A stretch of DNA of 64,000 nt from IMG/VR virus record IMGVR_UViG_3300045988_132576, positions 62,908 to 126,907 of that record; one strand, given 5' to 3'. Position 1 is the first letter of the stretch; each line of letters starts with the position of its first letter. The DNA is from a virus. The notes beneath the pieces are model-generated. The model was not told the origin of the DNA. It made no database searches and worked only from the letters and a program-made list of their open reading frames with translations. Of this stretch, positions 29,363 through 43,203 are shown one piece after another. A program made the position numbers and the translations under genes.

Positions 29363-29944
29363 TTGCCTAATACATTAAATAAATATGTAAAATTTGTCAG
29401 AGGTTCTAAAACTGCTTTTGAAAGTTTAGGAACAAAAAGAGACAATGATACTTTATATTTTATTTATGGGGAAAATGATTCTTCTGGAGAACTTTATTTA
29501 GGTAGTCGTCTAATTTGTGGTGGAATTAGTTCCGCAGGTAAGTTAAGTGATTTAAGCGATATTGTCCTCAATGAAGTTAAGACAAATCAAGTTTTAACTT
29601 ATAATGAAGAACAAAAAAAATGGGTTAATTAGAGTTTAGAAAATAATGAGACTTTAATTAATTCTATTGTTGAAAAATTATCTACAGAAGAAAATTTAGC
29701 TAAATTAGCTCCTGTTTTTAAGGGTAGAGTTCCAGGTTTAGTTCCAGTTTCTTTGCATGAAACTAAAGGAAAACATATCCTCACTGATGCTGGTACATGG
29801 ATTGATATGCCAGTAGGAACATTAACTTAGGGAGATATTGAAACAATTAGTATAGCTAATAAATATTTAGTAGATAAGGGTCCTGATAATTTGGTAACTC
29901 GTGTTGAAGCGGTTGAACAAACTGTTTCTTGGGCTGATATTTAA
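29363..29944 (+). CDS. tail-fiber N-terminal-domain protein (193 aa, TTG start)
   Basis: Shares an N-terminal motif with the genes at 29959, 31739 and 42175 (…F..GS…F…G……YF…D….Y…). Confidence 0.5.
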
Positions 29945-29958
29945 AGGAGTGAAAAAAA

Positions 29959-31620
29959 TTGAACGTTAAGTTTTTAAAAGGCTCTCAAGCCGAATTTGAA
30001 AAGGTGGCAGGTAGATATAAACCTGGTGCGTTTTATTTAGTAATTAATGACAATAAGTCCGCCGAAGACTATAAAAAACCAAGCCGTCTTTATTATGGTG
30101 TAGATGAAAATAATTGCGTCCCTGTAAATCAAGGCATTAATGTAGTTGATACTACCGCAGATTTACCTCAAAGTTTTAACCAAAATACTGCTGGCGAATT
30201 TTATTATATAAAAGATAAAAATATTTTATGTATCAATAATGGTAAAAATTGGATTCAAACTAATACTGATACTGTTTTAGATACTAGAAAAGAGAATAGT
30301 AATGTATCAGTAAATAACAATCCTGAAAGACCTAATGGAGCTTCTATAACTAATACTATTGCTGATAGTAGTGGTAATATTATTACTGAAACTTATGATA
30401 TTATAGGTAGCGATTATATCCAAATTGAAGCAGTTCCTGCTATTGGTGATAACGGTGTAGACACTGTTAAATTGAGTTTAAAAGGAATTAATTATCAATT
30501 AAATTCTTCTTTAAACGAAAAAACTTTAAATGTTAATTTAAATAATGGCGATACTGGTGCAGGTAATTTTAATATTACCGCCGGTAGTAATGTTAATATT
30601 GCTGAAACTTCTACTGGAAATTATACTTTAAGTGTAAATAAAGCTGTTGATAGTATTGATGTAGCTAATCATGCTACTGGTACTGGTTTTACTGCTTCTA
30701 TTAGTGGTCCTGGTGTTCAAGGGGCTGGTAATAATACAACTTTATCTGCTGATATTGATCCGGAAATTGCTTTAGAAGGTAAAACTGGTAGCTACAAATT
30801 TAAAGATGGTGTTTTAACTCTTCCTGTTTATAGTAAGCAAGATATTGATAATCAACTTAGAACTATTAATGCTATGGTATTCCGTGGCGGATTCCAAGTT
30901 AAAGATGGAGCTATTGCCTATGATAATTCTGATATTGCTGAAATTACTGAAGGTAATACCTTTATTTATACTGGAGCTGAAGATACTCTTTGGAATGGTC
31001 ATTATTTACGCCCTGGTGATTTAATTATTGCTTCTGGGGAAGAGGTTAATGGCGTTATTACTGGTACTATTAATTGGACTTATGTTCCTTCTGCTAATGA
31101 TCCTGTTACTGAAATTGAAGGAGCCAATGATAATAGTACTGCTGGTTTTATTATTAAACTTGGGTCTACCAGAAAACTTTTAGATTATGCTCTTCATGGT
31201 GAAAGTGGTATTGTTTTAGAAACAGAAGTTTTAACAGATTCAAAAGGTCAACCTACTAATTCTAAAGTTGTTACTATTAAACATAGTAATACTTTAACTG
31301 TAAATGATCCAGTTTCTCAATCTTATGCTGATGAACAAACTATTACTATTAATGAGCCAACTGAAATTGATGCTCAAGGGCATGTAATTAAATCTACTCA
31401 AAAAACTTTTACTGTAAAAAATACTCATCAAGAAATTGCTAATGCAGATTATACGGTAAATGGTACTAATACTTTAATTCCTAATCTTAAAGTTGCGGGT
31501 GCTGTTCTTGAAGGTAAACCGCTTGTTTTCGCAAGTAATAGTCTAAAGGTTAATGTTTCCGCGGCAACTAAGACTGATGATGCTAAAGTTAATTTTGAGC
31601 TAGAGTGGGGAACATTCTAA
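29959..31620 (+). CDS. tail fiber / receptor-binding protein (553 aa), TAG-free, TTG start
   Basis: Track ORF. N-terminal fiber anchor motif; Asn/Thr-rich beta-rich body. Confidence 0.55.
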   Translation: MNVKFLKGSQAEFEKVAGRYKPGAFYLVINDNKSAEDYKKPSRLYYGVDENNCVPVNQGINVVDTTADLPQSFNQNTAGEFYYIKDKNILCINNGKNWIQTNTDTVLDTRKENSNVSVNNNPERPNGASITNTIADSSGNIITETYDIIGSDYIQIEAVPAIGDNGVDTVKLSLKGINYQLNSSLNEKTLNVNLNNGDTGAGNFNITAGSNVNIAETSTGNYTLSVNKAVDSIDVANHATGTGFTASISGPGVQGAGNNTTLSADIDPEIALEGKTGSYKFKDGVLTLPVYSKQDIDNQLRTINAMVFRGGFQVKDGAIAYDNSDIAEITEGNTFIYTGAEDTLWNGHYLRPGDLIIASGEEVNGVITGTINWTYVPSANDPVTEIEGANDNSTAGFIIKLGSTRKLLDYALHGESGIVLETEVLTDSKGQPTNSKVVTIKHSNTLTVNDPVSQSYADEQTITINEPTEIDAQGHVIKSTQKTFTVKNTHQEIANADYTVNGTNTLIPNLKVAGAVLEGKPLVFASNSLKVNVSAATKTDDAKVNFELEWGTF

Positions 31621-31681
31621 GGGCAATACTATTTAATAATAAATATAATTTTTTCTATTTTATATAGAAGAATGTTTTTAT

Positions 31682-31719
31682 GGGGAAAGATGAAATATTC
31701 TTTCCCCATATTTTTTTTA
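31682..31719 (+). terminator. rho-independent terminator
   Basis: GGGGAAAGA…TCTTTCCCC followed by ATATTTTTTTT. Confidence 0.7.
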
Positions 31720-31738
31720 GGATAGAAAGGAGTAAATT

Positions 31739-41469: not shown

Positions 41470-41481
41470 GAGGTAAAATAA

Positions 41482-42102
41482 ATGATAACTAATCCAACTG
41501 ATTATTATAGCGTTTTACATCAAATACAAGATGAAAATTTTCCAGTAAAATATCCAGCTTTTCCTGCTCCAGAAGATGAAAAATTAGTTTAGATAAATTT
41601 AAATTCAAGGACTATTAGTAATGAAAATAATTATATTACAGTTGAAGGCGACCATGCTGCTGAAATTATTTATTTTGAAGTAGATAGATATTTTGACACT
41701 ATGGATTTAACTAATATGATGTGTATTATTTAGTATATTAATGCTGACAATGAAAAACGTATTTATCCAGTTCCATATTATGATACTTTAACTCATAAAG
41801 ATAAAATTATTTTTCCTTGGGTTTTAAATTATAGTGCTACTAAAAAATCTGGTAATTTAAATTATATGATAACTTTTTACAAAATAGAAAAAGATTCTAA
41901 TAATTTATTATATAATTTAAATACATTGCCAGCAAGTCTTTAGATTTATTCTAAGCTCAATTTAGATTCTATTGTAAAAGAAGAAGATTATTATGTAATT
42001 GATGATAGCCAAGTAGTTCAACAAATTTGGGAGCGTTTAGCTCGTTTAGAAGGATTTGTTGGTGGTAATGGGTTGGATGTTTATTGGATTGTTCTTGAAT
42101 AA
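41482..42102 (+). CDS. fiber N-domain paralog (206 aa, recoded)
   Basis: Shared motifs with 39793 (…EIIYFEVDRYFD… and …LNTLPA…). Confidence 0.5.
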
Positions 42103-42109
42103 ATAAACT

Positions 42110-42150
42110 AAATGGTATAGAATTATTAATTAATTCTATACCATTAATTT
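42110..42150 (+). terminator. stem-loop / terminator
   Basis: AAATGGTATAGAATT…AATTCTATACCATT. Confidence 0.5.
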
Positions 42151-42174
42151 ATAGAAAGGAGTTATTGAAGATCG

Positions 42175-43203
42175 ATGGCTCTATTTAAAATTTTAAAAGG
42201 AAACTCAAATAATTTAGTTTCCTATGATAATGCTGAAGTAGTTAATGGTAAAATTCCTTTTCCTGCCTTAGATTCAGGAAAAACTTTATTTACAACAGCA
42301 GACAGTACTCCTATTACAGAAGGATATGCTTATTTTACAGAAGACACTCATAAATTTTATATTGATACTAAAGATAAAAGATTAAATTTATATACTGATC
42401 ACGCGGATTATGCTACTTATGATGAAAACGGACGTAATTTAGCGGAATTGTCAGAAGTATCTTATGAAAATATTGATGATACTGGAAGTAAAATTGGTAC
42501 AATAAATATTAATGGAATTGAGCATAATGTTACTTGTCCTACTAATATAATAAGTAAACCTATAAATAAATATGTATTTACCGCAAAAGCAAATTAGAAT
42601 ACATTTACCATTCCTTTTGATTTTGATGATAGCAGTGCTTTAACTTTATATTACAATGGTATTATGTTAAAAGAAACAGATCATTATACCATTGAAGGAA
42701 AAGTTATTACTTTAAATGGTTGGACCAGTGAAGCTGATGATTATCTTGCGGTTATGGGTATTGAAGGAGCCGCCGCAATTAATGTAGACGAAAAAGTTGC
42801 TTAGATTTAGGAAGCAGTAGATAATGCTGAAATAACTATTAATAATAAAGTAAGTAGTGCTATTAAACAAATTGATGATAAATTAGCAACTGTTCCTGAT
42901 GATGTAACACAAGCAGTATATAAAAATAAATCTAATACAATGACTGCAAATGGTAAAATTACCATGGATAATACTTATATTCCTACAGCAGATATGGATT
43001 TAGCAACTAAAAAATATGTTGATAATGCTACTCCTCCTACGGTTGGAACTACTACTGATTATTCTATTTATATTGGATCTACATAGCCTGCTTCTGGCAC
43101 CGCGCCTTTAATATGGATAGATACAACTGCTAAAACTGGTACTTTTAAATATAGGACTTCTACCACAGGCACTTGGACACCTGTTCCAGTGGCTTGGATT
43201 TAA
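42175..43203 (+). CDS. tail fiber protein (342 aa, recoded)
   Basis: Track ORF 42175 extended across TAG. N-terminal fiber anchor motif. Confidence 0.5.

What the first reader, a model, noticed from the sequence alone, without database searches (positions are those of the whole stretch)
29363..43203. At least six fiber-type genes in two paralogous N-terminal-anchor families, suggesting multiple receptor-binding specificities
Genes 29363, 29959, 31739 and 42175 start with the same anchor-like motif. Examples are MNVKFLKGSQAEF…GAFYLV, MSKIRFRPVQGPEEK…GYFYVATDTGRVYLD and MALFKILKGNSNNL…AYFTEDTHKFYID. Genes 39793 and 41482 share a second N-domain. The distal parts are unrelated. This points to modular swapping of binding domains on common baseplate-attachment domains, possibly giving a broad or switchable host range.
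Basis: seen in the sequence. Interest (0 to 1): 0.6.

Follow-up and report, generated by a model that had tools for sequence, protein, structure and literature searches.

The report
Tail-fibre gene cluster with shared anchors
This stretch is the host-adhesion (tail-fibre) gene block of a large uncultivated phage that reads the TAG stop codon as glutamine; six neighbouring genes fall into two groups that each share a start-of-protein domain but carry different outer parts, which is a normal way for phages to build fibres, though one fibre is a 2,582-residue giant with a kinase-like domain.

Summary
With TAG read as Gln there are six genes plus a 66-aa ORF: gA 29363-29944, gB 29959-31620, gC 31739-39487 (2,582 aa), gD 39793-41469, gE 41482-42102 and gF 42175-43203. 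gA, gB, gC and gF open with one ~45-residue domain. Pairwise tests support only A-B and C-F. Profiles link all four, and an exhaustive search finds 1,399 protein clusters, with the domain N-terminal in every one of the 150 best listed. Two relatives pass Pfam's Mtd_N threshold, so I read it as a divergent Mtd_N-type fibre N-domain. gD and gE share a separate ~165-residue unannotated domain (37% identity, E 8e-15). The outer parts are unrelated. The six genes sit in the same order in relatives at 25-46% identity, one of which uses the standard code, so the paralogues are old, fixed parts of one apparatus. Close relatives differ mainly in the outer parts. No inversion or DGR repeats support switching. 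gC also carries a CotH-kinase-like domain and a BspA-type LRR end. Attachment function and fibre identity are inferred, not shown. Overall this is a new member of a known kind, of moderate interest.

The parts
29363..29944 (+). gA, 193 aa (TTG start, 2 in-frame TAG). N-anchor at about aa 7-50 (nt 29381-29512). Short protein, possibly an adaptor or short fibre.
   Evidence: hhalign to the gB family gives P 8e-7. Pfam PF24243 scores 22.4 bits, below the 23.7 cutoff. Orthologues in L038 and L039 are 35-39% identical.
29959..31620 (+). gB, 553 aa (TTG start, no TAG). N-anchor at aa 2-54 (nt 29962-30120), followed by an all-beta elongated body.
   Evidence: 51 homologues. The AF2 model has pLDDT 74.8, more than 40 strands and pTM 0.29. 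The external HMM scores 6e-12. The best BFVD match is an uncharacterised gut phage protein at 3e-7.
31739..39487 (+). gC, 2,582 aa with 26 in-frame TAG and a TGA stop. N-anchor at aa 2-43 (nt 31742-31867). CotH-kinase-like domain at about aa 895-1560 (nt 34421-36418), with an insertion of roughly 300 aa. BspA-type LRR at about aa 2394-2456 (nt 38918-39106).
   Evidence: phrog_14959 scores 3e-51. Homologues carry PF08757 and PF13306. 10 of the 13 aligned members hit CotH. The motifs DSRGKN (D1431) and YDIDT (D1466, D1468) are invariant. LRR_5 scores 25 bits against a 27.7 cutoff.
39497..39697 (+). gs, a 66-aa ORF that always directly follows the giant gene. Possibly an assembly factor.
   Evidence: 89-98% identical in close relatives and 38-44% in L038 and L039 at the same position. 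No family match.
39793..41469 (+). gD, 558 aa (TTG start, 4 TAG). Shared gD/gE domain at aa 40-206 (nt 39910-40410), followed by Ig-like domains with a variable C-terminus.
   Evidence: The AF2 model of proxy P0052 has Ig-like domains at pLDDT 80-96 and the shared domain at 45-79. Variation is confined to aa 300-558.
41482..42102 (+). gE, 206 aa (3 TAG). Almost entirely the shared gD/gE domain (aa 1-165, nt 41482-41976). 95-98% conserved among close relatives.
   Evidence: The orthologue in L039 is 46% identical.
42175..43203 (+). gF, 342 aa (4 TAG). N-anchor at aa 2-70 (nt 42178-42384), split by an insertion of roughly 30 residues. Followed by a beta domain, a coiled-coil-like stretch and a small C-terminal domain. 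Length alleles of 323-376 aa occur in relatives.
   Evidence: The external HMM scores 1.3e-5 at aa 41-68. hhalign to gC gives P 3e-5. Alleles are. phrog_25416 'virion structural protein' scores 1.2e-3.
43238..43645 (+). Holin gene. This is context: it marks the end of the structural block.
   Evidence: phrog_13712 holin scores 4.7e-38.

Best explanation
The region is the distal tail (host-adhesion) module of an uncultivated phage. Its related contigs reach about 197 kb, it is about 29% GC, and its late genes read TAG as glutamine.

Four proteins (gA, gB, gC, gF) begin with a ~45-residue beta-alpha-beta-beta domain, a divergent relative of the Mtd_N-type N-terminal domain of phage receptor-binding proteins. 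This domain most likely trimerises and plugs each protein into a common kind of socket on the baseplate or on a neighbouring fibre.

gD and gE share a second, unannotated ~165-residue domain. It probably serves the same role at another site, or acts as an adaptor.

The outer parts differ, so the virion would display several adhesive structures at once. gB has an all-beta shaft. gC is a giant carrying a CotH-kinase-like domain and a BspA-type leucine-rich-repeat end. gD has Ig-like repeats. gF has a coiled-coil stretch and a small terminal domain.

The six-gene set is an old, fixed apparatus. Host-range change happens by replacing or diverging the outer segments, not by switching.

Shown here: the gene models, both paralogies, the breadth of the family and its N-terminal position, the synteny, and where the variation lies. 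Inferred: the attachment function, trimer formation, display on the virion, and receptor binding.
For: Recoding. Codons opposite TAG in orthologues are mostly Gln (805 of the aligned residues: CAA 710, CAG 95).

Structural context: the upstream genes match phage virion and tail families and a holin gene follows.

N-anchor: significance is. A 46-position profile finds 1,399 cluster representatives at E<=1e-3 and 138 at <=1e-10. In all 150 best hits the domain starts at residues 1-26, in proteins of 52-794 aa. P0074 (30.1 bits) and P0103 (26.7 bits) pass the Pfam Mtd_N cutoff of 26.3, and the matches are colinear with the model. AF2 predicts E4-7, H9-14, E24-27 and E42-46 at pLDDT 73-83.

gD/gE domain. 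BFVD matches of 140-180 columns include proteins named 'L shaped tail fiber protein' (4.8e-7), and a 273-column match is named 'BppU N-terminal domain-containing protein' (1.3e-6).

Synteny across 25-46% identity and across two genetic codes.

N-terminal parts conserved and outer parts variable.

No switching repeats.
Against: None of the six window proteins reaches any curated Pfam or PHROG tail-fibre family.

There is no sequence match to any solved structure and no match to 50,697 deposited phage genomes.

Foldseek of the gB model against the PDB gave nothing usable.

The N-terminal part of the gD model has low confidence, so the BppU-like resemblance is weak.

The C-terminal Ig-like domains of gD resemble head-decoration proteins such as Hoc as much as they resemble tail proteins.

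The external HMM was built from hits of a profile in which three of the 13 rows came from gA, gC and gF, so there is a mild circularity. The cleaner HMM built from the gB family alone gives only 5e-4, 0.07 and 0.29.

Most of the 150 best family hits look like gB orthologues. The reuse of the domain on unrelated proteins therefore rests mainly on this clade's own paralogues.
Confidence: 0.62

Rival explanations
1. The shared N-terminal 'motif' is chance similarity in an AT-rich, compositionally biased genome, and the genes are unrelated.
For: Four of the six pairwise comparisons of the first 80 residues fall short of clear significance: A-C, A-F and B-F are not significant, and B-C is only marginal at p 0.035. 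BLAST gives C-F an E-value of 1.3. Pfam finds nothing for gB, gC or gF.
Against: Profile-profile P-values are 8e-7, 8e-5 and 3e-5. An external HMM ranks exactly these four first among 280 ORFs, each at its N-terminus. The same pattern recurs in the orthologues of L038 and L039. The family has 1,399 clusters, with the domain N-terminal in all 150 best hits listed.
Confidence: 0.04
2. The six proteins are alternative receptor-binding proteins that give a broad or switchable host range by recent cassette exchange on common anchors.
For: The architecture is shared anchors with unrelated outer parts. There is allelic diversity in the outer parts of gB, gC, gD and gF among close relatives, including length alleles of gF and two allele classes of gC at about 95% and about 65-70% identity.
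Against: Every genome examined has the same six genes in the same order, each with its own orthologue down to 25% identity. No repeats exist that could drive inversion or mutagenic homing. gA and gE are too small to carry a separate binding domain.
Confidence: 0.2
3. gD and gE (and possibly gA) are not fibres. They are baseplate adaptors or decoration proteins, with gD an Ig-like decoration comparable to Hoc and gE a structural adaptor or chaperone.
For: The C-terminal domains of gD match Hoc, capsid-vertex and Ig-like proteins, and Pfam gives weak I-set and PKD hits. gE is 95-98% conserved, unlike a receptor binder. One BFVD match is named BppU N-terminal domain-containing, which suggests an adaptor.
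Against: The genes lie at the end of the tail module, next to the other fibre genes and the holin. No BppU_N match was reported in the Pfam scans of the gD and gE shared-domain fragments (listing limit E 10) or of the remote gD/gE-family homologues (listing limit E 0.1). The shared-domain part of the model has low confidence.
Confidence: 0.3
4. gC is not an adhesin. It is a virion-carried enzyme (a CotH-type kinase) delivered to or acting on the host envelope, and its N-anchor merely tethers it.
For: Homologues carry Pfam CotH. The residues aligned with the CotH catalytic aspartates D228 and D251 (PMC7821199) are invariant in gC and its relatives.
Against: gC itself does not hit Pfam CotH. A profile of the domain does not reach the solved CotH structures by sequence. 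The domain is split by an insertion of roughly 300 residues. A BspA-type LRR end and Ig-like segments point to binding. CotH domains also occur in non-catalytic surface proteins (my own knowledge).
Confidence: 0.2

Closest known systems
[quoted passage not shown]
   Same: A short domain at the extreme N-terminus of phage adhesion proteins. It has a basic-Gly strand (F-K-x-G-T), a short helix, and then a 'T-D-T-x-R-L-Y-x-G' hairpin. Two members of the family found here pass the Pfam cutoff, and their matches are colinear with the model.
   Different: The four window proteins do not match the Pfam model at all. The core reads G-x-F-Y-L-T rather than the G-E-type core I recall from memory. No DGR is associated. 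The trimeric beta-prism fold was not tested.
Phages with several fibres or tailspikes sharing N-terminal attachment domains (for example the Ackermannviridae TSP1-4 complex, Klebsiella phage PhiK64-1, and T7-gp17-type anchors in multi-depolymerase podophages). This comparison rests on my own knowledge.
   Same: Several neighbouring genes have a conserved N-terminal attachment part and unrelated outer parts, and variation between strains lies in the outer parts.
   Different: There are two separate anchor families. The anchors are unrelated in sequence to those systems. The six-gene set is conserved down to 25% identity rather than varying in number. No depolymerase domains were detected.
BppU (baseplate upper protein) N-terminal domain of lactococcal phages TP901-1 and Tuc2009
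   Same: It is a possible analogue of the gD/gE shared domain: an N-terminal baseplate-docking domain that carries other parts. One BFVD match bears that name.
   Different: There is no sequence match to Pfam BppU_N or to solved BppU chains. The model of this part has low confidence.
CotH family kinases (PF08757) and BspA-type LRR surface proteins (PF13306)
   Same: Relatives of gC carry both domains. gC keeps the D-x-R-x-K-N and D-x-D motifs. CotH domains in phages have been noted as unstudied (PMC8008677).
   Different: In that report CotH is fused to a hypervariable C-type lectin. Here it sits inside a 2,582-aa protein with a fibre-type N-anchor and an LRR end, and it is split by a large insertion. 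gC itself falls below the Pfam thresholds.

Membership tests
Mtd_N (PF18454) | Match to the Pfam model at or above its gathering score (26.3 bits) | tested here: not met
   No Mtd_N hit was reported for the N-terminal fragments of gA, gB, gC or gF with the listing limit at E 10, although HMMER's filters drop most matches above about 0.1. In the wider family only 3 of 110 members hit at E<=0.01. P0074 (30.1 bits) and P0103 (26.7 bits) pass the cutoff. The link is therefore transitive only.
Mtd_N (PF18454) | Located at the extreme N-terminus of a phage adhesion or tail-fibre protein | tested here: met
   The domain starts at residues 1-8 in all four window proteins and at residues 1-26 in the 150 best database hits.
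Mtd_N (PF18454) | Trimeric beta-prism fold as in solved Mtd | not testable with these tools
   Only a monomer model is available (beta-alpha-beta-beta, pLDDT 73-83). There is no PDB sequence match and Foldseek was uninformative.
Phage_tail_C (PF24243) | Match at or above the gathering score (23.7 bits) | tested here: not met
   gA residues 10-35 score 22.4 bits, E 7.6e-5. gB, gC and gF give no hit.
DGR target protein (Mtd type) | A variable repeat in the gene plus a near-identical template repeat nearby | tested here: not met
   No direct repeat longer than 61 nt occurs in 26-48 kb. The 61-nt pair is the gD/gE paralogy at 75% identity. The rest of the genome was not available.
Invertible or shufflon-type fibre switching | Inverted repeats flanking fibre C-terminal segments, plus a recombinase | tested here: not met
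   The only close inverted repeat is a terminator-like hairpin at 43635-43702. The others are 71-81% complementary and 3.9-14 kb apart.
BppU_N (baseplate upper protein N-domain) | Sequence match to the Pfam model or to solved BppU | tested here: not met
   No hit for the gD and gE fragments, for remote homologues, or for the profile against the PDB.
BppU_N (baseplate upper protein N-domain) | Fold similarity | tested here: inconclusive
   One BFVD match is named BppU N-terminal domain-containing (E 1.3e-6, 273 columns, 15% identity), but the query region has pLDDT 45-79.
CotH kinase (PF08757) | Match to the Pfam model | tested here: inconclusive
   gC itself gives no hit. 10 of the 13 aligned homologous segments hit, with a best E of 3e-12. 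gC is 31-41% identical to them.
CotH kinase (PF08757) | Catalytic aspartates (B. subtilis D228 and D251; PMC7821199) | tested here: inconclusive
   D1431 in DSRGKN and D1466/D1468 in YDIDT are invariant across the alignment. In compact homologues the spacing is 22-24 residues, as between D228 and D251. No direct alignment to B. subtilis CotH was obtained.
BspA-type LRR (PF13306) | Match at or above the gathering score (27.7 bits) | tested here: not met
   25.0 bits, E 1.9e-5, at gC residues 2394-2456. Homologues pass, for example P0286 at 58.8 bits.
TAG-to-Gln recoded phage (genetic code 15) | In-frame TAG only, in late genes, aligned to Gln codons in relatives | tested here: met
   The minus-strand replication genes have few or no TAG.
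TAG-to-Gln recoded phage (genetic code 15) | Suppressor tRNA(CUA) encoded by the phage | tested here: not met
   ARAGORN finds no tRNA in the 64-kb window. Related contigs reach about 197 kb, so most of the genome lies outside the window.

The most novel reading that the evidence does not exclude
The giant protein gC is a tail fibre that displays a catalytically competent CotH-family kinase, tethered by an Mtd_N-like anchor and aimed by a BspA-type LRR. If so, a widespread clade of large gut or rumen phages linked to Clostridia would modify (phosphorylate) a host surface component during adsorption. The conserved six-gene module would then be a so-far undescribed host-recognition apparatus.
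Probability: 0.15. Interest if true: 0.75.

Novelty: new member of a known kind. Interest (0 to 1): 0.4.

Why it matters
Gene callers using the standard code break these genes into fragments, so the family is almost invisible in databases. The ten family clusters I looked up hold only unnamed or 'hypothetical protein' metagenomic sequences, and nothing matched 50,697 deposited phage genomes. Defining the anchor domain (1,399 clusters) and the gD/gE domain gives markers for finding the adhesion module in a large group of uncultivated phages. This group appears in ruminant and gut samples and in Clostridia and Oscillospiraceae bins. The markers also show which segments to swap or compare when predicting hosts. 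The CotH-plus-LRR giant fibre is a concrete, testable case of an enzyme-like domain on a phage fibre. As biology, shared anchors with variable tips are well known, so the general principle is not new.

Tried and rejected
1. Pfam and PHROG scans of whole proteins and of fragments gave only sub-threshold hits.

2. megablast and tblastn against deposited phage genomes, using the region, gB and a consensus-like family member, found nothing.

3. Profile or sequence searches of the PDB found nothing significant. These covered the N-anchor, full-length gC, the gC CotH-like domain and the gD family.

4. Foldseek of the gB model against the PDB gave no match below 1e-3 with a meaningful TM-score.

I used gB, which has no TAG, and the database proxy P0052 for gD instead.

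6. A search for names in cluster members returned only unnamed or 'hypothetical' metagenomic proteins.

7. DGR or inversion as a switching mechanism is rejected for this region because the repeats are absent.

8. The first genome-collection scan with a single N-terminus found nothing, and the 110-sequence alignment was too diverse to scan with. A narrower alignment found two MAG contigs.

9. I considered that g26995 (759 aa, upstream) belongs to the anchor family. It has no N-anchor match and has no detectable homologue in locus L038.
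Full report
**Gene models.** Under the standard bacterial code the region is a string of short ORFs. Translating all frames shows that the interruptions inside the long reading frames are always TAG and never TAA or TGA. Treating TAG as sense raises + strand ORF content above 150 aa from 5,547 to 14,651 residues. It also produces ORFs of 2,761 and 2,584 codons. Recoding TGA or TAA does nothing comparable on this strand. In alignments with orthologues from related contigs, the codons opposite TAG are mostly CAA (710) and CAG (95), so TAG is read as Gln. 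The minus-strand replication genes at 48-64 kb contain few or no TAG. No tRNA gene lies in the window.

The resulting genes are:
- gA 29363-29944, 193 aa
- gB 29959-31620, 553 aa
- gC 31739-39487, 2,582 aa with 26 TAG
- a 66-aa ORF, gs, 39497-39697
- gD 39793-41469, 558 aa
- gE 41482-42102, 206 aa
- gF 42175-43203, 342 aa

Each start is preceded by an AGGAG-type ribosome-binding site. A holin gene follows at 43238-43645, and the upstream genes match phage virion and tail families.

**First shared domain.** Plain pairwise tests give a mixed answer. On the first 80 residues with 2,000 shuffles, gA-gB (z 8.8) and gC-gF (z 5.7) are significant and gB-gC is marginal (z 2.2). The other three pairs are not significant, and BLAST agrees.

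Profiles connect all four. A full-length search with gB found 51 homologues. The more distant ones read '...V-x-F-K-x-G-T-Q...G-x-F-Y-L-T-x-D-T-H-R-L-Y-I-G', which bridges gB to the 'GYFYVATDTGRVYLD' of gC and the 'GYAYFTEDTHKFYID' of gF. hhalign between family alignments gives A-B P 8e-7, B-C 8e-5, C-F 3e-5 and B-F 5e-3. MAFFT places all four in one register.

A 46-position profile was scored against 1.84 billion cluster representatives. It found 1,399 at E<=1e-3 and 138 at <=1e-10. In every one of the best 150 the domain begins at residues 1-26, in proteins of 52-794 aa. An HMM rebuilt from 146 of those external proteins alone, run against all 280 window ORFs, returns gB 6e-12, gF 1.3e-5, gC 2e-4 and gA 0.03. 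After that comes noise at 1.2, and each match is at the N-terminus. An HMM from the gB family alone gives the same ranking with weaker values.

Two caveats apply. The retrieving profile contained three rows from the window's own paralogues. Most top hits also look like gB orthologues.

**What the domain is.** None of the four window N-termini matches a Pfam model above threshold. gA comes nearest, with PF24243 at 22.4 bits against a 23.7 cutoff. Of 110 family members scanned, three hit Pfam Mtd_N. P0074 (30.1 bits) and P0103 (26.7 bits) exceed the 26.3-bit cutoff. Their 'TTDTNRLYVGNGST' aligns to model positions 24-37, and the 'FKRGTQANLNTL' of P0112 aligns to positions 3-14. I therefore read the domain as a divergent branch of the Mtd_N-type N-terminal domain. 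Mtd is the receptor-binding protein of Bordetella phage BPP-1 (PMC11792537). The AF2 model of gB predicts strand, helix, strand, strand over residues 4-46 at pLDDT 73-83. There was no match to solved structures by sequence or by fold. None of the cluster members I looked up carries a name other than 'hypothetical protein'.

**Second shared domain.** gD 67-206 and gE 30-162 are 37% identical (E 8.5e-15). The alignment extends to gD 40-206 and gE 1-165, with z 33. It is even visible as a 61-nt DNA repeat at 75% identity. Database relatives are few, probably because TAG truncates the gene calls. Those found are 457-806 aa proteins with the same domain followed by Ig-like repeats. No Pfam family fits.

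The AF2 model of P0052, which is 89% identical to gD, is confident for the Ig-like C-terminal domains but weak for the shared domain. Foldseek against predicted viral structures gives short matches over the shared domain to uncultured-phage proteins. One is named 'L shaped tail fiber protein'. A longer, 273-column match is named 'BppU N-terminal domain-containing protein'. The C-terminal part matches Hoc-like Ig domains. The BppU-like reading is a lead, not a result.

**Outer parts.** They show no similarity to one another.
- gB is predicted all-beta and elongated (pTM 0.29). Its best structural neighbour is an uncharacterised gut-phage protein, with only weak tail-fibre matches.
- gF has a weak match to a 'virion structural protein' PHROG.
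- gC is the unusual one. Residues 655-1073 match phrog_14959, of unknown function, at E 3e-51.

A search with gC residues 640-1665 found 108 relatives, many carrying precomputed Pfam CotH and/or BspA-type LRR_5. I confirmed this on selected members. Mapping shows that the CotH-like domain spans about gC 895-1560 and is split by an insertion of roughly 300 residues. Ten of 13 aligned segments hit Pfam CotH, though gC itself does not. The motifs D-x-R-x-K-N (D1431) and D-x-D (D1466, D1468) are invariant. In compact relatives their spacing equals that of the CotH catalytic residues D228 and D251 (PMC7821199). The C-terminal 500 residues, which include a near-threshold LRR_5 match, are the most conserved part of gC among close relatives. 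CotH domains in phages have been mentioned as unstudied (PMC8008677).

**Comparison with relatives.** Thirty-five loci come from IMG/VR contigs of 68-197 kb, and further ENA and JGI contigs add to them. All carry the same genes in the same order. Windowed identity shows the following:
- gB 1-60: 0.95
- gC 1-100: 0.89
- gD 1-300: about 1.0
- gF 60-100: 1.0
- lowest values: gB about 400-440, gC 100-300 and 1100-1400, gD beyond 300, gF 120-260

gC occurs in two allele classes (about 95% and about 65-70%), and gF occurs in length alleles of 323-376 aa.

Three much more distant contigs keep the order gA-gB-gC-gs-gD-gE at 25-46% identity, and both domain HMMs hit the expected genes. They are L038 (TAG-recoded), L039 (standard code) and L041 (TAG-recoded, binned in a Clostridia MAG from roe-deer abomasum). 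The paralogues therefore predate the divergence of these phages, and also predate the change of genetic code.

**Switching.** The 26-48 kb region has no inverted repeats bracketing a segment, no VR/TR-like repeat pair and no relevant tandem repeats. Nothing here supports a switchable host range. The rest of the genome was not available.

**Verdict.** Constant N-terminal parts with variable outer parts are supported. But the gene set is an old, fixed multi-component apparatus rather than a site of recent cassette shuffling or switching.

The attachment role of the two domains, trimer formation and receptor binding are inferences. They rest on position, on conservation pattern and on the Mtd_N link. 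This is a new member of a well-known kind of phage architecture, in a poorly annotated clade. The CotH-plus-LRR giant protein is the one feature that deserves follow-up.

Noticed in passing
window 3254-47000 (+ strand) versus 48000-64000 (- strand): TAG is used as a sense codon (Gln) throughout the late/structural block, for example 80 times in the 2,759-aa gene at 9479-17758. It is rare or absent in the minus-strand replication genes: the 1,337-aa DNA polymerase III alpha-like gene has none. No suppressor tRNA lies in the window.
   Followed up: partly
window 34421-36418 (gC aa 895-1560): A CotH-kinase-like domain sits inside the giant fibre-anchored protein, split by an insertion of roughly 300 aa. 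The DSRGKN and YDIDT motifs are intact. Relatives combine CotH with BspA-type LRR.
   Followed up: partly
window 43693-44409 (- strand): A 238-aa protein with a response-regulator receiver domain (Pfam Response_reg, 35.4 bits) is encoded on the opposite strand right after the holin gene. The two are separated by a terminator-like hairpin at 43635-43702.
   Followed up: partly
window 39497-39697: A 66-aa ORF always directly follows the giant gene, even in relatives at 38-44% identity. It matches no known family and may be an assembly factor.
   Followed up: partly
window 26995-29274: A 759-aa protein with a coiled-coil-like C-terminus lies just upstream of the fibre genes. It lacks the N-anchor and has no detectable homologue in the distant relative L038. 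It may be another peripheral tail protein or a docking partner.
   Followed up: partly
window 30180-30260 (gB aa 75-100): gB and its relatives carry a second, weaker copy of the 'G-x-F-Y-Y...N-I-L-C...G-x-W-x-Q-I-N' hairpin motif just after the anchor. This suggests an internal duplication of the hairpin.
   Followed up: no
window 45387-46241: A 284-aa protein with a Gly/Asn/Trp-rich hydrophobic N-terminal part and Cys-rich ends (CCC, CGC) lies downstream of the lysis gene. It has no family match.
   Followed up: no
L041 (JAFTFU010000004.1, 120.7 kb) and L040 (JAQXMC010000026.1): Contigs carrying the same fibre module are binned in a Clostridia MAG (roe-deer abomasum) and an Oscillospiraceae MAG. 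This is a weak host clue. L041 is itself TAG-recoded and is probably a phage contig.
   Followed up: partly
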